This document shows, one piece after another, positions 8,264-38,875 of a DNA stretch of 64,000 nucleotides. The notes under the pieces were generated by a model. The model searched no databases. It worked only from the letters and a program-made list of their open reading frames with translations, and was not told where the DNA came from. The stretch lies in sequence record MK373784.1; one strand, written 5' to 3'. A program made the translations under genes and the position numbers. Within the stretch, counting starts at the first letter, position 1, and each line of letters begins with the position of its first letter. This DNA is from Escherichia phage vB_EcoM_MM02.

Positions 8264-9835
8264 ATGAAATTTAATATCTTAAGTTTGTTTGCTCCATGGG
8301 CAAAAATGGACGAACGTGATTACAAAGACCAAGAAAAAGAAAATTTAGAATCTATCACCGCACCAAAATTAGACGACGGCGCTAAAGAATACGAAGTATC
8401 TGAAAATGAAGCACAGCAAACATATAATGCTATGTTTCAGAGAATGTTCGGTAGTCAAGAACCAGGGCTCAAATCAACCCGTGAATTAATCGATACGTAT
8501 CGAAATTTGATGACGAACTATGAAGTGGATAATGCAGTCTCTGAAATAGTTTCCGATGCTATCGTGTATGAAGATGATACAGAAGTCGTTTCTATAAATT
8601 TAGACAACACAAAATTTAGTCCAAATATCAAATCAATGATGTTGGATGAATTTAACGAAGTGTTAAATCATTTATCTTTCCAACGTAAAGGTTCAGACCA
8701 TTTTAGGCGTTGGTATGTAGATTCTCGAATTTTCTTCCATAAAATTATTGACCCTAAACGCCCTAAAGAAGGTATTAAAGAGCTTCGTCGTTTAGATCCA
8801 CGTCAAGTTCAATATGTCCGTGAAGTTATTACAACCACTGAAGCCGGTGTTAAAATAGTCAAGGGTTATAAAGAATATTTCATTTATGACACATCACACG
8901 AATCTTACGCTTGTGATGGTCGCATATATGAAGCTGGCACAAAAATAAAAATCCCTAAAGCCGCGATTGTTTATGCCCATTCTGGTTTAGTTGATTGTTG
9001 TGGTAAAAATATCATTGGTTATTTGCATCGGGCTATTAAGCCGGCGAACCAATTAAAACTTCTTGAAGATGCCGTCGTAATTTATCGTATTACTCGTGCT
9101 CCTGATCGTCGTGTATGGTACGTTGATACAGGTAATATGCCTTCAAGAAAAGCAGCAGAACATATGCAACATGTTATGAATACGATGAAAAACCGTATTG
9201 CATATGATGCTACTACAGGCAAGATTAAAAACCAGCAGCATATTATGTCGATGACCGAAGATTATTGGTTACAACGACGTGATGGTAAAGCAGTAACAGA
9301 AGTTGATACATTACCAGGTGCAGATAATACCGGAAATATGGAAGATGTACGTTGGTTCCGTAATGCGCTTTATATGGCTTTACGTATTCCTATTACCCGT
9401 ATTCCAAGTGACCAAGGTGGTATACAGTTTGATGCTGGTACTTCTATTACACGAGATGAATTATCATTTGGTAAATTTATTCGTGAGCTGCAACATAAAT
9501 TTGAAGAGATATTCCTAGACCCGCTTAAAACTAATTTAATTCTTAAAGGAATTATTACAGAAGATGAGTGGAATGATGAAATAAATAATATTAAGATAAA
9601 ATTTCATCGGGATAGTTATTTCTCGGAATTAAAGGATGCTGAGATTCTGGAGCGTCGCATTAATATGCTTCAGATGGCCGAACCATTTATTGGTAAATAT
9701 ATTTCTCACAGAACAGCTATGAAAGATATTCTTCAGATGTCTGACGAGGAAATTGAACAAGAGGCTAAGCAAATTGAAGAAGAGTCGAAAGAGGCTCGTT
9801 TCCAAGACCCCGACCAAGAACAAGAGGATTTTTAA
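8264..9835 (+). CDS. 20: portal vertex protein gp20
   Basis: 523 aa (T4 524); late promoter at 8228-8235. Confidence 0.92.
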
Positions 9836-29307: not shown

Positions 29308-29337
29308 ATAGTATCACACATCCATGTGTTTGTAAAC
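29308..29337 (-). promoter_or_regulatory. early promoter for the 28985-29278 gene
   Basis: minus-strand GTTTACAAACACATGGATGTGTGATACTAT, then leader CAACAACATGAGGAAA. Confidence 0.6.
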
Positions 29338-31424
29338 TATCCTTGGACAAATTTAAACGGAACTGATTCTAAATCCATTAAAGATGCTAACAATTTCAAA
29401 CCTTTAGGTGCACTAGTTTTTTCTACAAATGAGGCAAAAGATACCGGCTCATCCGATTCGATTTCACCCGTCATAGCAACCACCTCGCCTGTTTCCATGA
29501 GAACATCACCATCATAAATGACGGCTTCATCCAACTGGTCTGAGGACATGACTTCAGCTTGAATAAATTTAAGGTTGGATTCTAAACCTGCACCGGTGTC
29601 AGATGACGCATCTGTAATTTTATTTATCTGCAAGAGAATGCCTCTAGGCAAAATAATTTCTTGCTCATTAGGGTGATTACTCAACTGTCCTGGATAAATC
29701 ACGTTAACTTTATGGGCGCCATCGATAGCCCATCCAACGTTAACACGGATTTGTTCTGGTGCATGCATAGCTGTTCTTACTTGACTAGGAGAAATAGTAA
29801 CACCTTCGTCATTATTGTCAATGTTAAGCTCTTTGCGAACTTCTTCAGGAGCAAGTCCAAGGGCAACGTTCTCTTTAAACCCACCGAAAATAATAGGAGC
29901 TAGTGAAGTGGAAACATAGTTTCTGAAGTAGAATACCTTATTTTTAACCATTGCTTCGTAAATAGGCATTCTGATAGACTGAGCTCTATATAACGTTAGT
30001 CCTTCAGGTAAACGGTCTCCATTTAAAAACGCCGAATCAAGACCATCAATAGCGCGTTTAACTTCATCTTCATCCGCAACATCGTAAAAATCTGGTTTAT
30101 AACGACCTAACAACATATTATTGATATCTGTATATGCAGAAGAGGCATATTCACGAATAGCTCGTTTTTCAGCAACAGAGTATTGTTTAGGGTCCCGATT
30201 CATTGTTATATTAAAGGTGCCTCTAGCCGATTCTCGGGCATAAGTATACATCACATTAGACAAGAACGCTGATTTACTTTGTTTCCAAGTTCTTTCAGAT
30301 ACTTCAGCTAAAACGTCGTCAGGCAGTTGGAAATTATCACGTCTAAAATCTTCAAACCATTCGTCTTTAATAGAGTCTGCAATTTCATTTGCAGTTTCAA
30401 CAAAAGCAGCTAATGCTTTAACAGATGTTGTTTTTTCAGTTTTAATTTTCTTAGCAAACTTTTCTAAAGTCGGCTTAATAACACTACCATAAGAAACTTC
30501 ATCGGCAAATTTAAAGGATTCATCAATACGATTATAAATCTTATTTTCGATATCAGCAACTAAAGTGCCTTTTGCTGTGGATGATGCTTGGGCTAGTACG
30601 ATTTCATATGCTTCAGGAAGTAATTCGGCTGTAGCTGGGCCGCTAACTTCTTTAGCAGAATTTTCGTATTTCTGGAATAACTCACCTTCTTGTCGGTCAG
30701 CTTCTAAAGATTGACTTGCTGCAATAGCACGACGAGAAATTTTGGTGCGAGCAATAACAGGCTTATCTTTACGTTTTTCTTCTACCGCGGCAATAGAACC
30801 AGCGATAGCAGTTTCTTTGGTAACCGTTTCGCCAGTCTTTTTACTCACATAAACTTCGCCAACATCAGAATCTACTTTCGTGTACAACTCTGTGTTAATG
30901 TTAGGGATGCCTTTAATATCTTCAATGTTGGCATTTTTACGAACCATCATCACATAGGTGTGTTTACCTGTGAATTGATACATTGCCGACAATACTTTAA
31001 AACGACCACCGGTTTTAGTAGAAACTAAACGAGCAAGAAGAGTTTGAAGCTGTTGTCCACGTCCTTTCAATTTCTTGGTAGGGAATCGGAACAGAACTGC
31101 ATCCATACGAAGAGCTTTAACTTGTTCATATACTGTATTGAAAATGGTGTTGATTGCATCAATAGGAGCAGGACCAAGGCCATTTTTCAATTCAGCGAGA
31201 TTACCCTTTTCAGACAGACTCATAATAACAACATGAGCGTATTTGTCGCCAAGTTTAACTTGTTTTACAGCGTCGCCTTCGGAAAGGTAAGAGAATAAAC
31301 GAACTACAATATTTGTATCGATATCACCAATTTTCCAGACTTGTGGAACTTTAGCTTTAGGGTTCAAATTGACGACAGGAAGACTGCCTTCAGATTCAAA
31401 CACTTCATTTAATTGTTCAGACAT
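29337..31424 (-). CDS. alt: Alt ADP-ribosyltransferase (packaged, modifies host RNA polymerase)
   Basis: 695 aa (T4 Alt 682); position between 54 and 30. Confidence 0.85.
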   Translation of the reverse strand: MSEQLNEVFESEGSLPVVNLNPKAKVPQVWKIGDIDTNIVVRLFSYLSEGDAVKQVKLGDKYAHVVIMSLSEKGNLAELKNGLGPAPIDAINTIFNTVYEQVKALRMDAVLFRFPTKKLKGRGQQLQTLLARLVSTKTGGRFKVLSAMYQFTGKHTYVMMVRKNANIEDIKGIPNINTELYTKVDSDVGEVYVSKKTGETVTKETAIAGSIAAVEEKRKDKPVIARTKISRRAIAASQSLEADRQEGELFQKYENSAKEVSGPATAELLPEAYEIVLAQASSTAKGTLVADIENKIYNRIDESFKFADEVSYGSVIKPTLEKFAKKIKTEKTTSVKALAAFVETANEIADSIKDEWFEDFRRDNFQLPDDVLAEVSERTWKQSKSAFLSNVMYTYARESARGTFNITMNRDPKQYSVAEKRAIREYASSAYTDINNMLLGRYKPDFYDVADEDEVKRAIDGLDSAFLNGDRLPEGLTLYRAQSIRMPIYEAMVKNKVFYFRNYVSTSLAPIIFGGFKENVALGLAPEEVRKELNIDNNDEGVTISPSQVRTAMHAPEQIRVNVGWAIDGAHKVNVIYPGQLSNHPNEQEIILPRGILLQINKITDASSDTGAGLESNLKFIQAEVMSSDQLDEAVIYDGDVLMETGEVVAMTGEIESDEPVSFASFVEKTSAPKGLKLLASLMDLESVPFKFVQG

Positions 31425-31464
31425 AGTGTTTTCCTTTTAGTAATAATTTATATTTATGCCAAAA

Positions 31465-31480
31465 AGAGCCCGAAGGCTCT
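31465..31480 (-). terminator. hairpin after the 31480-31668 gene, upstream of alt
   Basis: agagcc-cgaa-ggctct, T-run on minus strand. Confidence 0.55.
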
Positions 31481-31668
31481 TAATCCACAATCGGAAGCAA
31501 AGTACGATAAACTTCAAAATTATAGCCTTTTTCGTACTTATCGAAATTGTCCATAAAAATATGATAGGAATCGTTATTAGGAAAATCTAATATAATCTGA
31601 GAGCAAGAGGTGGAAACATCTCCACCATCCTTCTTAGCTACAATAACTGTTTCTAAATAAGCTTTCAT
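31480..31668 (-). CDS. hypothetical small protein between ligase and alt
   Basis: 62-aa ORF from ATG at 31668 whose start overlaps ligase stop (TAATG); terminator directly after its stop. Confidence 0.5.
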   Translation of the reverse strand: MKAYLETVIVAKKDGGDVSTSCSQIILDFPNNDSYHIFMDNFDKYEKGYNFEVYRTLLPIVD

Positions 31669-33161
31669 TATAAACCTGTCTGGGACCACGGTCCAAATAC
31701 GTCTTCAAACGAATCCGCTTCTGTTTTATCAAAACGGAACCCTTTAATAATTGGGAGGAAAATACCTACAGTACCTTCACGGCCTTTAGAATGAACCCAA
31801 CCATTACATTCACAATCAGCGATACGTCCAATTAATTTACCTTCACGAGCTTCGGTCATTAATCGTTCACGGTCTAAATCATGACGCTCGTCTAAAGGAA
31901 TAAGAACCTTTACACCGTCAACTGTTTTATGAGTTGTATCTTTAAAACCTGAACCGCAATCGGTTGTAATACGACGACAACGTGATACGAGTTCGACACC
32001 ACCTAATTTGTTAGGGTCTTTAGAGTGTTCATAGTATCCTACAACTTCTAAAGCGATATCAATAACTTCTTTAAATTTAATTAGGTTCTTAGAACGTTTG
32101 TTTTCCCAATATGAATCACGGTTTTTAAGGATAATACCTTCAAGACCTTGGTCAACATATTTTTTATAAACCACTTTAGCTTCGTCAAGATTACGAACTA
32201 ACTGATTTTCAATTGGCTCAATTCGTTTAAAGCCTTCGGCCATATTTTCAAGAGCAGCAAAACGAACATCGTATTTCTGACCTTTAATTTTGCCATCAGA
32301 ATAGACTTCATCTAAAGGAACATAGTCCCAGGCTTGAAGAACCATACCTTCCGCTTCTTTAGGAGAAATAGTCCCTTGAAGAGATTTATTTGCTAAACCG
32401 TTTGAAGTGCTACGGTCCGCAACTTGTACTTCTTCGGATTCTTCATTATCACCAAATAAGAACGACAGATCATTTCCTGAGCTCACAGCCTTTTTAATAT
32501 CAAATGAATGGTAAACTAATTCACCGTCGATTAAAACCCCATTAGGGTGTCTTTCACGAGCTTCTTTAGTCATTTCCATTAGTTCATCCGCTAATAGGGT
32601 AAGACCATGGTATTCATTACCAGCACGAGAAAAGAATTGAACACCATCATCGCGAACTTCAGCGAAACAACGAGCGCCGTCTGCTTTTAATTGGGCAAAT
32701 GCAGGCCATTTAATATTTTTAGTAATCAATTTCTCATCATATGCAGATGCTAACATCTGTGGCTGCAATTGAATAAGTCCAGGCCACACCTTATTCGCGA
32801 TAGACACTGAAGCACCTACTTCAAGGTCTCGCATCATTACACGACGAAGGACTTCTACATCATCAGGTTTACCGTCAGCGATATAACCCATGAGCTCTTT
32901 AATTGCAGCATTACCAGTGAGTTTACGAGTGGCTAATGTGAACTCAATAAAATCCAACATGTCATCTAATTCAAGAAGACCATATGCTTGAGACCTTTCA
33001 CCTGGTCCTGGCCATTTCTTAATATAATACTGGATACCGCGTGCATATGTTAAACGATACACACGTTCAAGTAATTTGTTGTCCTTATTTTTCTTAAGGA
33101 TTTCTTGTTTTGTTTTAGTAGAACCGATCGCAGCTATTTGGTTTAAAATATCTAAAATCAT
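31668..33161 (-). CDS. 30: ATP-dependent DNA ligase gp30
   Basis: 497 aa; N-terminus MILDILNQIAAIGSTKTKQEILKKNKDN and adenylation motif KADGARCFAEV match T4 DNA ligase. Confidence 0.95.
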   Translation of the reverse strand: MILDILNQIAAIGSTKTKQEILKKNKDNKLLERVYRLTYARGIQYYIKKWPGPGERSQAYGLLELDDMLDFIEFTLATRKLTGNAAIKELMGYIADGKPDDVEVLRRVMMRDLEVGASVSIANKVWPGLIQLQPQMLASAYDEKLITKNIKWPAFAQLKADGARCFAEVRDDGVQFFSRAGNEYHGLTLLADELMEMTKEARERHPNGVLIDGELVYHSFDIKKAVSSGNDLSFLFGDNEESEEVQVADRSTSNGLANKSLQGTISPKEAEGMVLQAWDYVPLDEVYSDGKIKGQKYDVRFAALENMAEGFKRIEPIENQLVRNLDEAKVVYKKYVDQGLEGIILKNRDSYWENKRSKNLIKFKEVIDIALEVVGYYEHSKDPNKLGGVELVSRCRRITTDCGSGFKDTTHKTVDGVKVLIPLDERHDLDRERLMTEAREGKLIGRIADCECNGWVHSKGREGTVGIFLPIIKGFRFDKTEADSFEDVFGPWSQTGL

Positions 33162-33427
33162 TTGATGTCCTCGATTTTGGTTACGGTTCTATTATAAGCC
33201 ACTTCATCTAGAAGCGATTTCAACGTTTTCTGATAAGTGGTAATCCATTTACCGAGCCCTTCAACATAGTATTCTGAAATGTAGATGAACCCTTGTTCAA
33301 CACACTCTTTAAATATTTCTGCGTCTTTTACTGAACGAAATAAGGGCCAGTCTCGAAAGAACATGTTAACGTGACCGTAGTCACGCGTTGTGTTTTTGCC
33401 ATCTGTAATATCATGAACTACAAACAT
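33158..33427 (-). CDS. hypothetical protein
   Basis: 89-aa ORF, ATG start, stop overlaps ligase start. Confidence 0.55.
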   Translation of the reverse strand: MFVVHDITDGKNTTRDYGHVNMFFRDWPLFRSVKDAEIFKECVEQGFIYISEYYVEGLGKWITTYQKTLKSLLDEVAYNRTVTKIEDIK

Positions 33428-33436
33428 AATTGACCC

Positions 33437-34261
33437 TTAACAATTTATAGACCAAGTCCATTTAGACGAATCTAAAGGAAAGTTTTGAATCGTCCACCAC
33501 GGCTGCATATCAGTTGGTCCTGGGGTTCGCCAGGTATATGGAGTACGTGTTGTCGAGGGGCCACCAATTTGATTAGGCCATGCACCTGGACTTGTTGCAC
33601 CAGATTCTTTAAGCAAATCCGCCAATCGTTTTAAAAGGTCTTCATGATCTGAATCTGAATTATTCTTAGGCAGAACCAAACGAGATTCAATATCATCCCA
33701 TGTGTGTACACGTTGTGCAGTGCGAGGAATATCATCACGTTCACCACGAGCCAACCAATAAATCGGTACATTAAGAATTTCTGCCGCATGGTCACAATGA
33801 TGAGCTAAATCGTCAACGTAACAAATTACGTTATATTTTGTTTTAGCTAGTTCGAATAATTGTTCCTTTGAAGAATCATGACCACACATCATTACTTCAG
33901 AGAAAGCGCCTGGGAACAAAGCATTCAAATTAAATTGTCTATTCAATCGAGCATCAATTGAATCACCTAGCGCCGTCACGGCTACAAAATTATAGTCTTC
34001 TTTTAGTTTATTGATAACTCGAAGAGCATCAGAATAAGGCGCTAAGTAACGAATAAAATCAGAGCTATTATATTTTTCTATTAATTGTTTACCAAGGTTA
34101 TCGTCGGTATTGAACAGTTTACCAGGAGAAATAAATTTTTCGTCCTGAATCATTTTTAAAATATGTTCTAATGGAAGGTTATATTTTTGGGCAAAATAAG
34201 GAAGTCCAGATTGCCAGCTTAAACATACACCATCAATATCAGTCAAAATAGTAGGCTTCAT
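33437..34261 (-). CDS. HAD-superfamily hydrolase, NT5C-like putative (deoxy)nucleotidase, with Trp/Pro-rich C-terminal tail
   Basis: 274 aa; HAD motif I DIDGV near N-terminus, motif IV-like YVDDLAHH; unusual C-terminus AWPNQIGGPSTTRTPYTWRTPGPTDMQPWWTIQNF. Confidence 0.6.
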   Translation of the reverse strand: MKPTILTDIDGVCLSWQSGLPYFAQKYNLPLEHILKMIQDEKFISPGKLFNTDDNLGKQLIEKYNSSDFIRYLAPYSDALRVINKLKEDYNFVAVTALGDSIDARLNRQFNLNALFPGAFSEVMMCGHDSSKEQLFELAKTKYNVICYVDDLAHHCDHAAEILNVPIYWLARGERDDIPRTAQRVHTWDDIESRLVLPKNNSDSDHEDLLKRLADLLKESGATSPGAWPNQIGGPSTTRTPYTWRTPGPTDMQPWWTIQNFPLDSSKWTWSINC

Positions 34262-34716
34262 AAAGAGTCTCTTAATAGGTTTAACACGTCAATAAATTCA
34301 TCTTCAGTTAGTATTGTATCATCTTTTGTTAGGTGGCTGGCCATGCTGTGCTTCAAAATTTTTCCTTTAGAGGCTTGTAAGGCATCGCGAAACCCCTTGT
34401 TTTGGATCGCGGCTTCAAAATATGCATTTGTGTATAATTCTTTCCACGCTTCAGAGTATCTTGAAAATGGAACTCCTAACCAGAAGAGAGTCCCACGGTC
34501 CTGAGCTCTTGCGTAAGACCTTCCAGCTTGCTGTGCAACCAATCCAGACAACCCAAATATACGTCTTTGTTGTTCAACATTTTTCACCTTACATCCTTGG
34601 AGAAATCCTTCAAGACCTCCGAATTGAATACCATCCATAACAAAAGGCCATTGAGCAAAGTTACTTAATGCACATGACGGCCACTTGAAATTACTTCTTA
34701 TTTCTAATTCAGACAT
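34258..34716 (-). CDS. NADAR-domain (YbiA-like, DUF1768) protein
   Basis: First ATG at 34716 (track start is GTG at 34725); segment LSNFAQWPFVMDGIQFGGLEGFLQGCK resembles the YbiA/NADAR signature; ATGA overlap with downstream gene. Confidence 0.55.
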   Translation of the reverse strand: MSELEIRSNFKWPSCALSNFAQWPFVMDGIQFGGLEGFLQGCKVKNVEQQRRIFGLSGLVAQQAGRSYARAQDRGTLFWLGVPFSRYSEAWKELYTNAYFEAAIQNKGFRDALQASKGKILKHSMASHLTKDDTILTEDEFIDVLNLLRDSL

Positions 34717-34927
34717 CTTTAACACTTATAATTTCAACATCAGCCCAATGTCCGTATCCAGGTATACGGTCTTCGATAGATAAATTTCTGTCATTTTTAG
34801 GCATTTTAATTGACGTAACGTATGGTTCTAAACGGTTTTCCGCGTAATATGGAAAAACGTCGGTTACACGATAAGTAACTTCAATCATTTCCGTACCAAA
34901 CAATTTCTGGATTAATTTATTCAACAT
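34709..34927 (-). CDS. hypothetical protein
   Basis: 72-aa ORF with ATG start. Confidence 0.5.
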   Translation of the reverse strand: MLNKLIQKLFGTEMIEVTYRVTDVFPYYAENRLEPYVTSIKMPKNDRNLSIEDRIPGYGHWADVEIISVKDV

Positions 34928-35114
34928 GTTTCAACCCTTTAATAGGAGATAACTCTTTACCCATACGTATGTCAGAAGTCCCATCAACCCATTGAACAGC
35001 ATACGCTTCATTGATAATTCCAGCGGCAGTTTTAAATTCTTTGAGAACTTTAAAAATCATCCCAGGGATTCCAACACCTTTTAATTGGACTGTTTGTGCT
35101 ATTAAAAATTTCAT
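34917..35114 (-). CDS. hypothetical protein
   Basis: 65-aa ORF with ATG start; early promoter at 35139-35169. Confidence 0.5.
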   Translation of the reverse strand: MKFLIAQTVQLKGVGIPGMIFKVLKEFKTAAGIINEAYAVQWVDGTSDIRMGKELSPIKGLKHVE

Positions 35115-35138
35115 ATTTTTCCACTTACTAAAGAAATC

Positions 35139-35169
35139 ATTATACTCTAATCCGTCCTTGGATGTACAC
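35139..35169 (-). promoter_or_regulatory. early promoter for the 34917-35114 gene
   Basis: minus-strand GTGTACATCCAAGGACGGATTAGAGTATAAT. Confidence 0.5.
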
Positions 35170-35783
35170 TACTTAATGAAATTAATTTCTACCGGATGAA
35201 CAACAGGTTGAGCAGTGATATATTGAGTAATTGCTTTCATGACTAGAGCTTCAGAACCAGGATTTTTCTCAACGAATTCACGTGCTAGGTTATGAGCTTC
35301 GAGTTCACTCAATAAACCGGAACGCTGGCATCCACGGTCTTGAGTACCCTGTTCAGATAAAAGGACTACTACATATTTTTCATCGTCGTATGGCTTAGCC
35401 AGTTGAGCAAATGTTCCTTTACTTCCAAAAGGAGAGTTATGTCGCCACATCACGCCGTGAGGAGTTTCAACCTTCGTATATTCGTGCGGTCCATTTTTCT
35501 TAGTTTCTTGATGTGGAACTTCATAGACTTTAGGGTTAGGACATTCAATAAAATGCTCATCTAAATCGGTCGAGAATATTAAAGTAAAACAATTACTGAA
35601 TTTACCAACACCGGCCTGATAAATTTTACCTTCAGAAGTTCTAATTTCACAAACCGAGCCGGCATCAGTAACTTCTAAAACTTCAAAAGGCTCGATAAGG
35701 TCATATGAGAACATGTTTTTAAGGCGTGGAGTAATATCCCCATTTTTAAAATTCATTTTATAAAAAGTATTAACTTTAAACAT
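35169..35783 (-). CDS. hypothetical protein
   Basis: 204 aa from first ATG at 35783 with GAGGAAA ribosome-binding site; the track start at 35813 is TTG and overlaps a terminator hairpin. Confidence 0.6.
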   Translation of the reverse strand: MFKVNTFYKMNFKNGDITPRLKNMFSYDLIEPFEVLEVTDAGSVCEIRTSEGKIYQAGVGKFSNCFTLIFSTDLDEHFIECPNPKVYEVPHQETKKNGPHEYTKVETPHGVMWRHNSPFGSKGTFAQLAKPYDDEKYVVVLLSEQGTQDRGCQRSGLLSELEAHNLAREFVEKNPGSEALVMKAITQYITAQPVVHPVEINFIK

Positions 35784-35795
35784 AATTTCCTCAAT

Positions 35796-35811
35796 GGGAG
35801 CCGAAGCTCCC
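35796..35811 (-). terminator. hairpin between two minus-strand early genes
   Basis: gggagccgaagctccc. Confidence 0.5.
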
Positions 35812-35818
35812 AATTAAT

Positions 35819-36184
35819 TTAGATATCAAATTCGTTAAGAACTACATCAAAGATTGCTTCGAGATGTTCAGGTTTAGCTCGGTTACTCAGGATATGACGA
35901 ATCCAAGATTTAACCAGAAGTTTACGATTAACACCATTCCAGCAAGGATGAGTACCTAAATCACGCTGACGGAAATCATCATCTAATGCAATTTTAAAAT
36001 TTGAACCTTCCATCGTGATTGAAACCGTGATACCATTTTCAAATCGCATATAAACGTAATTAGGAGTCATGCACTGTTCGATTTCACAAACTGTACCGTT
36101 TTCGTGTTTCCATAAGCAAATAACTTCAGAAGAACCAGCAATACCGTTAGAAACATATTTACGTTCGAAGTTGGTGTAGTTCAT
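35819..36184 (-). CDS. hypothetical protein, paralog of the 36259-36627 product (shared CMTP motif)
   Basis: 121-aa ORF; own early promoter at 36225-36254; GGAGAA ribosome-binding site. Confidence 0.6.
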   Translation of the reverse strand: MNYTNFERKYVSNGIAGSSEVICLWKHENGTVCEIEQCMTPNYVYMRFENGITVSITMEGSNFKIALDDDFRQRDLGTHPCWNGVNRKLLVKSWIRHILSNRAKPEHLEAIFDVVLNEFDI

Positions 36185-36224
36185 TTTATTCTCCAGATGT
36201 TTAAGTTGTTTGTTGGTACAGGTC

Positions 36225-36254
36225 TATAATAACATAACCTGTACCAAAGTAAAC
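36225..36254 (-). promoter_or_regulatory. early promoter for the 35819-36184 gene, with inverted repeat flanking the -10
   Basis: minus-strand GTTTACTTTGGTACAGGTTATGTTATTAT; palindrome ggtacaggt / acctgtacc. Confidence 0.55.
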
Positions 36255-36258
36255 TGTT

Positions 36259-36627
36259 TTATGCAACTTTAATCCAATTGTCTAAATTTAAAACACCTTT
36301 GGCTTTCATTTTTTCTATCAGGTTATCTGCTGTAATGCGTCCATTTTGATACCATGTAACATCTTCAGAGTAACCAGTTTCTTCGTCAACATATGTTTCT
36401 GAACGAATTTTACCGGTAATAATAGTTTTTAATTCGTATGTGTCACCTGTGAAAAAGTTTGCTAACACAATTTTCCAAGAGAAATCATCAGAAGGACCTT
36501 CAGGGGTCATACAACCTACGAACTCAAATTGCTCTTTGTATAACATCCACTGGAATTCTTTAATTTCGATAGCTTTATAACCATCGTGGTCTTTACATTT
36601 GATGTATGAGTTCAGATTGATTTTCAT
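36259..36627 (-). CDS. hypothetical protein, paralog of the 35819-36184 product
   Basis: 122-aa ORF; own early promoter at 36670-36698; similar 5' leader. Confidence 0.6.
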   Translation of the reverse strand: MKINLNSYIKCKDHDGYKAIEIKEFQWMLYKEQFEFVGCMTPEGPSDDFSWKIVLANFFTGDTYELKTIITGKIRSETYVDEETGYSEDVTWYQNGRITADNLIEKMKAKGVLNLDNWIKVA

Positions 36628-36669
36628 TTTGTTCTCCAGGTTGTTTTATTGATTAGATGGTACAAGTCT

Positions 36670-36698
36670 ATAGTAACACATCCTACAGGAGAGTAAAC
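36670..36698 (-). promoter_or_regulatory. early promoter for the 36259-36627 gene
   Basis: minus-strand GTTTACTCTCCTGTAGGATGTGTTACTAT. Confidence 0.55.
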
Positions 36699-36734
36699 AT
36701 CTTTTTAAACTTTTTCTGCCCTAAACGCACAAAA

Positions 36735-36752
36735 GGGAGACCGAAGTCTCCC
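36735..36752 (-). terminator. intrinsic terminator after the small basic protein gene
   Basis: minus-strand GGGAGACTTCGGTCTCCC then TTTTGTG. Confidence 0.65.
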
Positions 36753-36757
36753 TAAAA

Positions 36758-36937
36758 TTATGCAACAACCTTTCCAAAACGAGAAGCATCATCTCGAAGA
36801 ACTGCACGTGCTCTGCGCATGATCTTCTCAACTGTTTGATTAATACGAGAGTTCGACCCACGCTTGTATCCAGCGCGTTTAGAGGTACCATCAACTTTCT
36901 TTTCAACTGCTTTCTTTGCTTTAGCTTGTTTTGCCAT
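36758..36937 (-). CDS. small basic Lys/Arg-rich protein (59 aa), not in ORF track
   Basis: ATG at 36937 to TAA at 36758; translation MAKQAKAKKAVEKKVDGTSKRAGYKRGSNSRINQTVEKIMRRARAVLRDDASRFGKVVA; terminator hairpin directly downstream. Confidence 0.5.
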   Translation of the reverse strand: MAKQAKAKKAVEKKVDGTSKRAGYKRGSNSRINQTVEKIMRRARAVLRDDASRFGKVVA

Positions 36938-37232
36938 TATAAATTCTCTTTAAATGAAAATGCAGGACTTATTGACATTGCCTGCGCAAGCCCTCAAGGG
37001 GAACATAGGTTTTGGATATTTAACGACAGGATAACCATAAACCCGTCATCATACCAACCACGACTTAGACAGATAACCTTTTTCTGACGCGTGATAGTAC
37101 AAAATACATTCAAGAGGTACACCGTAAAACTGCCGGGGCCTTAAAACTATAATGATTCGCAAATCATTAATCAGACAGTTCGACGGCTCCTCGATTTTCT
37201 AGCCGCACTTAAGGTAGCGAATCACCTAAAAC

Positions 37233-37481
37233 TTATTTAAGGGTAATAACAAAATGACGTACTGCTTTACGAGCTGCAGAAGCCAAAGGCTTAGCATATT
37301 TCAGTTCATCTTTTGCTTCCAGTTCAGAGGCCAAAGCTGCCTGTACCGGGTTCAGATGTTTGAAATAATGCAGGATTTCCAGTGCTTCGGCTTCAACATC
37401 AATCGACGCGCCGTAGTTTTCGTGACCGTTATTCCATGCGTTTCGTTGCAGTTCAAGAGCGTGTTGTAATTGTTTAATCAT
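37233..37481 (-). CDS. rIII: rIII lysis inhibition accessory protein
   Basis: 82 aa, same length as T4 RIII; N-terminus MIKQLQHALELQRNAWNNGHENYG matches my recollection of T4 RIII. Confidence 0.85.
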   Translation of the reverse strand: MIKQLQHALELQRNAWNNGHENYGASIDVEAEALEILHYFKHLNPVQAALASELEAKDELKYAKPLASAARKAVRHFVITLK

Positions 37482-37605
37482 TTTAAATTCTCAATTCGAG
37501 ATAATATTTAGTAGCCACGTTCGTCTGAATTTCACCTTCTTTCGACAAGTCTCTCAGTTGTAGGCTACCGCTTAGAAGAGTGTTCTCTTCATATAGTTAT
37601 TTATA

Positions 37606-37938
37606 TCACTTATAAAGACACGGAATAGCTTTATAGTGGCATGTTACGAATTTCTGTTTAATTTCTTTAGGTTGTTTAAGTCCCAAAGCCACAAATGGAT
37701 GTGGAACATTTCGAATTTGTCCAACTGGTAGTGGAGTCAAATCACCGACTTCAACAAAACCTTCAGGAACATCAGGACCTACAGAATGAACTACACATAG
37801 TTCAGGAACTTCACCTTGAACACGTTTACCAATCACAAGTCCTGATTCGGTAACTTCTTCATCACCTGCTTGAGCGGGTTCAGAAACCAGAATGACATAT
37901 TCACCAACAGCACGAATTGGGAGTTGTACTTCAGACAT
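37606..37938 (-). CDS. 31: co-chaperonin gp31 (GroES analogue)
   Basis: 110 aa; [54 protein letters not shown] matches T4 gp31. Confidence 0.93.
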
Positions 37939-37995
37939 CTTATTTCCTTGTTGTTTGACGATAGATTAATAATACCATACTATTCGTAAAGCATA

Positions 37996-38292
37996 TTACA
38001 TAAGAAGCAAACGTTCTACCGGAGTACCATCAACCGAAATTACTTTATCAAGGCGGAAAGAACGCCACTGACCTAACTTGGTATCGAATGCTCGAACTGA
38101 TTCACGAGGTTCAGAACGAACTTCTGTTGCCGGATTGTTATTTTCATATTTGACTTCAAGTTCATCGCGCGAAGCAAACATAGTGCGTACCTCACCGTTA
38201 GCCTTTTCAAATACAACACAATGAACGCCTACAGACAGAATAGTTTTAATACGTTCACGAAGAACCATAGTTTCTTGTTCAGTTAAAATCAT
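37996..38292 (-). CDS. hypothetical protein between cd and 31
   Basis: 98 aa from first ATG (track start is GTG); TAATATG junction with cd stop. Confidence 0.55.
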   Translation of the reverse strand: MILTEQETMVLRERIKTILSVGVHCVVFEKANGEVRTMFASRDELEVKYENNNPATEVRSEPRESVRAFDTKLGQWRSFRLDKVISVDGTPVERLLLM

Positions 38293-38293
38293 A

Positions 38294-38875
38294 TTATTCA
38301 CCACAAAAGTTTCGGATTTGTTCCCAATTCAGAGAACGAAGATTATTACGAGAGTACTGAATTACTTCAATACCGGCTTGTTTTAGAATGTCTGCCCAAT
38401 TTTCAGGAGATCTGTCATATAATTCTGCGTATACAACCTTTTTAATACCTGACTGTGTAATAGCTTTAGTGCAATCAGGACACGGAGAAAGCGTAGTATA
38501 TAACGTAGCACCTTCAATAGAATTACCTTTACGAGCTGCAAACAAAATTGCATTCAGTTCCGCATGGATTTCGTTATTAGCAGACCATGCACTATGAGCG
38601 GCCCGATGTTCTTTAGCCAAAACAAAATTATCTGCCCGTCCAAATGCTGTAGTGCCTTCTTTATGCCCAGCAACGATGACCGGGCTTGGTTTATTCTTCA
38701 ACCAACCGTTTTCGGATGCATGTTCGCAACAGTTTGTACCACCTGAAGGAGAGCCATTATAACCTGTAGAAATAATGCGTCCATCTTTTTCAATGACGGC
38801 GCCAACTTTCCATGAACAACATTTTGATTCTTGAGAAATCAGATATGCAATCTGAAGGTATGTGCTAGCTTTCAT
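38294..38875 (-). CDS. cd: dCMP deaminase
   Basis: 193 aa as T4 Cd; zinc-binding deaminase motifs HAELNAI and PCPDC. Confidence 0.92.
   Translation of the reverse strand: MKASTYLQIAYLISQESKCCSWKVGAVIEKDGRIISTGYNGSPSGGTNCCEHASENGWLKNKPSPVIVAGHKEGTTAFGRADNFVLAKEHRAAHSAWSANNEIHAELNAILFAARKGNSIEGATLYTTLSPCPDCTKAITQSGIKKVVYAELYDRSPENWADILKQAGIEVIQYSRNNLRSLNWEQIRNFCGE

What the first reader, a model, noticed from the sequence alone, without database searches (positions are those of the whole stretch)
34258..34716. NADAR (YbiA-like) domain protein 3 kb from the Alt ADP-ribosyltransferase
The roughly 150-aa early protein contains LSNFAQWPFVMDGIQFGGLEGFLQGCK, which resembles the conserved core of the DUF1768/NADAR family. 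From memory, NADAR enzymes have been reported to remove ADP-ribose from guanine in DNA, reversing DarT-type toxin modification; if that holds here, this is a candidate anti-defence or ADP-ribose-processing gene. It is coupled (ATGA) to the HAD-like gene and sits near alt, giving a local ADP-ribosylation theme.
Basis: partly seen in the sequence, partly recalled or inferred. Interest (0 to 1): 0.55.

Follow-up and report, generated by a model that had tools for sequence, protein, structure and literature searches.

The report
Phage AdfN: known anti-DarTG1 NADAR enzyme

The parts
34258..34716 (-). adfN (T4 gene 30.3 orthologue), 152 aa plus stop; phage-type NADAR DNA ADP-ribosylglycohydrolase
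34588..34668 (-).
   Evidence: Aligns to YbiA residues 29-55, FSNFAAWPIKVDGKTWPTSEHYFQAQK. L17 S18 N19 F20 F25 E36 G37 F38 Q40 K43 are invariant in 53 homologues.
34609..34611 (-). Codon GAA for E36, a catalytic glutamate
   Evidence: Invariant in the family. The E36A mutant of T4 AdfN is impaired in vivo and inactive in vitro (PMC11825919). Codon read.
34588..34590 (-). Codon AAG for K43, a conserved ADP-ribose-contacting lysine
   Evidence: Invariant in the family. K43A is impaired in T4 AdfN. Codon read.
34348..34350 (-). Codon CAC for H123, the last-strand histidine that replaces Glu (YbiA family) or Asp (DarG1/BC4488 family) and marks phage NADARs
   Evidence: Invariant in the family. It sits directly after the last strand, residues 120-122, in the model. 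The subfamily hallmark is described in PMC11125620 and PMC11543638.
34264..34305 (-). C-terminal helix, residues 138-151; intact here, missing in RB69
   Evidence: Helix 138-151 in the model. RB69 has an extra T at gene position 411 that creates a stop after T137, and the window lacks it. Truncation reduces activity.
34258..34261 (-). ATGA overlap: adfN stop / 30.2 start (translational coupling)
   Evidence: Sequence. The same arrangement is found in T4.
34709..34716 (-). ATGTCTGA overlap: 30.4 stop / adfN start
   Evidence: Sequence. Conserved in T4 and RB69.
33437..34261 (-). Context only: gene 30.2, HAD-superfamily (5'(3')-deoxyribonucleotidase-like) protein with a variable C-terminal tail. 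No functional link to adfN has been shown.
   Evidence: phrog_420 E=3e-78. HAD_2 E=0.014. 2jao E=0.18. 69% identical to T4 gp30.2.
29337..31424 (-). Context only: alt, the packaged protein ADP-ribosyltransferase. A synteny neighbour, not part of the AdfN mechanism.
   Evidence: tblastn to T4 alt E=5e-173. The syntenic RB69 gene is annotated alt.

Best explanation
The gene encodes AdfN (anti-DarT factor NADAR), the minimal 'phage-type' NADAR enzyme of T-even phages. When the phage infects a host carrying the DarTG1 toxin-antitoxin defence, the DarT1 toxin ADP-ribosylates guanines in phage DNA and blocks replication. AdfN is made from the early 30.x gene cluster. It cleaves the N-glycosidic bond between ADP-ribose and guanine and so restores replicable DNA. 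Catalysis uses E36 and K43 in the helical core plus H123 after the last strand, and the C-terminal helix (138-151) is needed for full activity. Shown here for this window: orthology, NADAR fold, intact catalytic residues, an intact reading frame, and strong purifying selection. Shown in the literature for the 95%-identical T4 protein: the enzymatic activity and the anti-DarTG1 phenotype. Inferred: that this Mosigvirus allele is active, so that this phage resists DarTG1, unlike RB69.
Against: No experiment exists on this exact allele, which has 7 substitutions relative to T4 (K11R, V60A, E89P, I120V, M125I, H128G, D139A, written window-to-T4). None lies at an invariant position. hmmscan gives no match to the NADAR model PF08719. 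T4 AdfN does not rescue DarT1 toxicity in uninfected cells and only weakly rescues non-T-even phages, so the in vivo mechanism needs an unidentified T-even factor and is not fully understood.
Confidence: 0.9

Rival explanations
1. Its main physiological substrate is not DarT1-modified DNA. Instead it acts on ADP-ribosylated RNA guanines or on soluble ADP-ribose-derived molecules produced by other host immune systems, and the anti-DarTG1 effect is one facet of a broader activity.
For: T4 NADAR also reverses RNA G-ADPr in vitro (PMC11833690). [quoted passage not shown] The family is kept in about 1500 phages of many hosts, whether or not DarTG1 is common in those hosts. T4 AdfN is a comparatively weak enzyme and a poor antitoxin outside infection.
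Against: The only in vivo phenotype known is DarTG1-specific and complete: no plaques without adfN, and insertions lost only on DarTG1 hosts. No soluble substrate has been shown.
Confidence: 0.07
2. It is a YbiA-like housekeeping N-glycosidase that destroys reactive riboflavin-pathway intermediates, unrelated to defence.
Against: The YbiA-defining last-strand Glu is replaced by His in the whole phage family. The gene is dispensable on E. coli K-12 and conditionally essential only with DarTG1. The phage has no riboflavin context around the gene.
Confidence: 0.02
3. It reverses or edits the phage's own ADP-ribosylation (Alt, ModA, ModB), as the 'local ADP-ribosylation theme' would suggest.
For: alt lies 2.8 kb away. 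[quoted passage not shown]
Against: Alt is annotated as a mono-ADP-ribosyltransferase that targets proteins, whereas every NADAR tested acts on base-linked ADP-ribose. alt is absent within 6 kb of the gp30.3 homologue in 5 of 6 distant phages. In T4-like genomes the two genes are separated by ligase and three other genes, and alt encodes a virion-packaged protein, so it belongs to a different expression class.
Confidence: 0.01

Closest known systems
T4 gp30.3 = AdfN (anti-DarT factor NADAR), Johannesman et al., Nat Commun 2025 (PMC11825919); 'phage NADAR' of Toxins 2024 (PMC11125620)
   Same: Orthologue: 95% amino-acid identity, same 152-aa length, same position between 30.2 and 30.4, same overlapping start and stop junctions, and same E36/K43/H123 and C-terminal helix.
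   Different: Seven conservative or surface-type substitutions. The host genome is a Mosigvirus, not a Tequatrovirus. T4's annotated internal ORF 30.3' is not open here.
RB69 gp30.3 (truncated AdfN allele)
   Same: Same genus (Mosigvirus) and near-identical DNA across the gene.
   Different: RB69 has a T inserted at gene position 411, giving a stop after T137, loss of the terminal helix and DarTG1 sensitivity. The window allele is full length. RB69 also differs at S2P and at R52H/R53S.
DarG1 antitoxin NADARs (BC4488 family; E. coli C7 NADAR, Geobacter/Trichlorobacter lovleyi 8bat)
   Different: No adjacent DarT toxin, so it is an orphan. His replaces the catalytic Asp in the last strand. It lacks the N-terminal extension that forms the electropositive DNA channel. 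The T4 orthologue cannot act as an antitoxin in uninfected cells.
E. coli YbiA / PnNADAR (YbiA family, PF08719/DUF1768)
   Different: 19-21% identity. No PF08719 HMM hit. His replaces the family-defining Glu. Different physiological role.

Membership tests
gp30.3 / AdfN family (Pfam PF08010 Phage_30_3) | Match to the family HMM above the curated cut-off | tested here: met
   232.2 bits against a cut-off of 36, covering profile positions 1-138 of 138.
gp30.3 / AdfN family (Pfam PF08010 Phage_30_3) | Invariant E36, K43 and last-strand His (H123) | tested here: met
   All three are invariant in a 53-sequence alignment and present in the window protein. Codons verified in the DNA.
gp30.3 / AdfN family (Pfam PF08010 Phage_30_3) | Full-length protein with the C-terminal helix (absent in the inactive-like RB69 allele) | tested here: met
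   No +T at position 411. Helix 138-151 predicted at high confidence.
gp30.3 / AdfN family (Pfam PF08010 Phage_30_3) | Removes ADP-ribose from guanine in DNA and confers resistance to DarTG1 | not testable with these tools
   Shown for the T4 protein only. Inferred here from 95% identity.
NADAR superfamily (YbiA-like, DUF1768) | NADAR alpha+beta fold: helical core flanked by two small beta-hairpins | tested here: met
NADAR superfamily (YbiA-like, DUF1768) | Match to Pfam PF08719 (NADAR/DUF1768) HMM | tested here: not met
   No hit even at E<=10. Only one of 82 homologues (P0064) carries a precomputed PF08719 hit. Sequence-level linkage is limited to YbiA, at E=0.6 for the single sequence and 0.0054 for the profile. 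This reflects how Pfam partitions the families and does not show a different fold.
NADAR superfamily (YbiA-like, DUF1768) | Conserved catalytic Glu and Lys of the core motif | tested here: met
   E36 and K43 align with the E and K of the YbiA motif SEHYFQAQK in the HMMER alignments.
DarG1 antitoxin (DarT1-linked BC4488 NADAR) | Encoded next to a DarT1 toxin gene | tested here: not met
   The neighbours are 30.2 (HAD-like) and 30.4. No PADLOC defence-system model hits the gene or the two nearby genes scanned, 30.2 and the 214-aa ORF.
DarG1 antitoxin (DarT1-linked BC4488 NADAR) | Catalytic Asp in the last strand | tested here: not met
   The position is His123, invariant in the phage family. The Asp/Glu/His distinction is described.
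YbiA family proper | Conserved Glu in the last strand (E125 of PnNADAR) | tested here: not met
   Replaced by His123.

The most novel reading that the evidence does not exclude
The translationally coupled downstream gene 30.2 (a HAD / 5'(3')-deoxyribonucleotidase-like protein) could be the unidentified T-even-encoded factor that AdfN needs for full activity in vivo. The published work shows T4 AdfN works fully only during T-even infection and leaves the factor unknown, and it does not consider 30.2. The two genes overlap by ATGA. The first 45 codons of 30.2 are 100% conserved between this phage and T4 (dS 0.73, like adfN). Both genes occur in about the same set of T4-superfamily phages (1438 and 1510 records).
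Probability: 0.05. Interest if true: 0.45.

Novelty: already known. Interest (0 to 1): 0.1.

Why it matters
As a discovery it does not matter much. The gene family, its fold, its catalytic residues, its biochemical activity and its role against DarTG1 were all published between 2012 and 2025 for the T4 orthologue. The practical value lies in annotation and host-range prediction. Nearly all of the GenBank records I saw still label this gene 'hypothetical protein'. It can confidently be named adfN, a DNA guanine ADP-ribosylglycohydrolase and anti-DarTG1 factor. Because the allele here is intact, this Mosigvirus is predicted to plate on DarTG1-carrying E. coli, unlike its relative RB69. That prediction is relevant when choosing phages for therapy or for defence-system studies.

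Tried and rejected
(1) Direct Pfam test for NADAR/DUF1768 gave no hit even at E<=10. I do not treat this as a refutation, because Pfam has a separate gp30.3 family and the fold test was decisive.

(2) NCBIfam and PADLOC gave nothing for the protein.

(3) I suspected that adfN is a recently exchanged 'island', because it is 95% identical to T4 while its neighbours are 42-69%. I rejected this after computing dS. adfN has dS 0.62, the same class as gene 31 (0.58), 30.7 (0.70) and rIII (0.87). It is not recent, and the pattern is explained by strong purifying selection plus hyper-divergent flanks.

(4) I tried to count RB69-type frameshifted alleles against intact alleles by exact-pattern scans of the viral contig collection. 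Both patterns returned zero loci, so this was uninformative.

(5) The sigma-70 promoter and terminator scan of 31.4-38 kb was no better than shuffled sequence (24 against 21 expected), so I make no transcription-unit claim from it.

(6) Functional linkage to alt is rejected as a conserved association: alt is absent within 6 kb in 5 of 6 distant phages. The same holds for adjacency of 30.2.

Full report
**Observation.** The window carries a minus-strand ORF at 34258..34716. It encodes 152 aa from the ATG at 34716. The quoted peptide LSNFAQWPFVMDGIQFGGLEGFLQGCK is residues 17-43. The stop overlaps the start of the downstream 274-aa gene as ATGA. The start overlaps the stop of the upstream 72-aa gene as ATGTCTGA. 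A 695-aa Alt homologue lies at 29337..31424, 2.8 kb away. Every factual element of the finding is confirmed.

**Identity of the genome and gene.** The region is 99% identical to Escherichia phage vB_EcoM_KAW3E185, which is classified in the genus Mosigvirus of Tevenvirinae. This is the genus of RB69. Gene order is that of T4: alt, alt.1, 30 (ligase), 30.1, 30.2, 30.3, 30.4, 30.5..., 30.7, 30.8, 30.9, rIII, 31, 31.1, cd. The ORF hits Pfam PF08010 (Phage_30_3) at 232 bits over the whole model, and it hits phrog_652. It is 145/152 identical to T4 gp30.3 with no gaps.

**Is it a NADAR?** At the level of curated HMMs the answer looks negative. There is no PF08719 hit even at E<=10, nothing in NCBIfam and nothing in PADLOC.

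- The single sequence finds only E. coli YbiA in the PDB, at E=0.6. A 53-sequence family profile improves this to E=0.0054. In both cases the core motif aligns to YbiA's FSNFAAWPIKVDGKTWPTSEHYFQAQK.
- The fold test is decisive. An AlphaFold2 model built on 52 homologues has mean pLDDT 93.8 and pTM 0.89.
- The family alignment shows E36, K43 and H123 invariant. H123 sits immediately after the last beta-strand, residues 120-122.

**What is already known.**

- T4 gp30.3 hydrolyses guanine-linked but not thymine-linked ADP-ribose on DNA in vitro, yet does not rescue DarT1 toxicity in uninfected cells (PMC11125620).
- It also reverses RNA G-ADPr, less efficiently than the E. coli C7 antitoxin (PMC11833690). 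It was included in the cytidine-ADPr panel, where G-ADPr hydrolysis was confirmed (PMC12945103).
- Johannesman et al. (PMC11825919) renamed 30.3 as adfN. They mapped DarTG1 resistance to its 3' region through T2/T4 x RB69 chimeras. They showed that deleting it abolishes plaquing of T4 and T2 on DarTG1 hosts and that ectopic expression rescues RB69.
- A transposon screen confirmed that insertions in 30.3/adfN are lost specifically on DarTG1 hosts (bioRxiv 10.1101/2025.11.20.689424).
- The Aravind-lab survey had already remarked that NADARs of T4-like phages are early genes encoded along with the ARTs (PMC9503650).

**What this window adds.** The paper reports that RB69, the type Mosigvirus, carries a thymidine insertion at position 411 of 30.3. 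This truncates the protein by 15 residues and correlates with DarTG1 sensitivity. A three-way DNA alignment reproduces that insertion in RB69 exactly (alignment column 435, which is gene position 411). It gives a TGA right after T137, and the window lacks it. The window allele therefore keeps the terminal helix 138-151. None of the seven differences from T4 falls on an invariant column. Nei-Gojobori estimates against T4 give dN 0.03 and dS 0.62, so dN/dS is about 0.05, which indicates strong purifying selection. I therefore predict that the protein is active and that this phage resists DarTG1. This prediction is an inference and has not been shown.

**The neighbourhood claims.**

- The downstream gene 30.2 is plausibly a HAD-superfamily phosphatase. 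It has DIDGV at residues 8-12, Pfam HAD_2 at E=0.014 below the cut-off, and the PDB 5'(3')-deoxyribonucleotidase 2jao at E=0.18. One phage record names it a deoxyribonucleotidase and two name it a HAD-like hydrolase.
- 30.2 and adfN occur in nearly the same phage records, 1438 and 1510 with the same host breakdown. This reflects shared T4-superfamily ancestry.
- Among six distant phages with a gp30.3 homologue, only an Acinetobacter T4-like phage keeps 30.2, ligase and alt nearby. Aeromonas phiAS4, Klebsiella Nispero, Caulobacter CcrPW, Rhizobium RHph_I1_9 and Ralstonia RSP15 have none of them within 6 kb.
- The 'ADP-ribosylation theme' with alt is therefore synteny, not a conserved functional module. 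Alt is annotated as a protein-targeting mono-ADP-ribosyltransferase, while NADARs act on base-linked ADP-ribose.

**An idea tested and dropped.** adfN is 95% identical to T4 while alt, ligase, 30.1, 30.2, 30.4 and 30.5 are 42-69%. A block of 82-95% nucleotide identity spans about 34760 to 34130. This looked like a recently exchanged island. However, dS for adfN (0.62) matches that of gene 31 (0.58), 30.7 (0.70), rIII (0.87) and the first 45 codons of 30.2 (0.73), whereas the other genes compared are saturated (1.5-2.6). adfN simply belongs to the slowly evolving class, and there is no evidence for recent transfer.

**Open point.** T4 AdfN works fully only in T-even infections, and the required factor is unknown. 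The coupled gene 30.2 is an untested candidate. I give this a low probability, because the adjacency is not conserved and 30.2 looks like a nucleotide-metabolism enzyme.

**Verdict.** The feature is already known: it is an intact orthologue of a characterised anti-defence enzyme. Interest is low, and the main use is to correct 'hypothetical protein' annotations and predict DarTG1 resistance.

Noticed in passing
window 34353..34580 (-), inside adfN in another frame; compare L001:5403-5630: T4's annotated internal ORF 30.3' (75 aa, a different frame within 30.3) is not open here. A stop splits it into 34-aa and 24-aa pieces. This argues against 30.3' being a conserved coding sequence.
   Followed up: partly
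window 29337..38875 compared with T4 (L001): Divergence from T4 is sharply bimodal gene by gene. adfN, 31, 30.7, rIII and the first 45 codons of 30.2 have dS 0.6-0.9 and 91-100% amino-acid identity. alt, ligase, 30.1, 30.4, 30.5, 30.8 and cd have saturated dS (1.5-2.6) and 43-72% identity. This is a mosaic of slow and hyper-divergent segments within one early region.
   Followed up: partly
window 35169..35813 (-): A 214-aa ORF (204 aa in the annotated relative; phrog_17531, no Pfam or PADLOC hit) occupies the slot where T4 and RB69 have the ~95-aa gene 30.6. Its N-terminal ~100 aa weakly match other unknown PHROGs (phrog_622, phrog_8920). This is a variable cargo slot two genes upstream of adfN.
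   Followed up: no
window 33437..33650 (-), C-terminal ~70 aa of gp30.2: The C-terminal tail of gp30.2 (Pro/Trp/Thr-rich, ...GGPSTTRTPYTWRTPGPTDMQPWWTIQNF...) is only 33-42% identical to T4 at the DNA level, whereas its N-terminus is 90-95%. Most distant homologues align only to residues 1-~195. It looks like a rapidly evolving appendage on a conserved HAD core.
   Followed up: no
L009 (RB69) 8268-8681 compared with window 34258-34716: Besides the +T frameshift, RB69's adfN differs from the window at S2P and at R52H/R53S (CAACATAGT against CAAAGACGT). This is consistent with relaxed constraint on an already disabled allele.
   Followed up: no
literature, PMC11125620 section 4.2: The Toxins 2024 methods list the T4 phage NADAR construct as 'gp30.3; residues 1-208', whereas T4 gp30.3 is 152 aa in NC_000866. 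This is a discrepancy in the paper or its construct description, not in the window.
   Followed up: no
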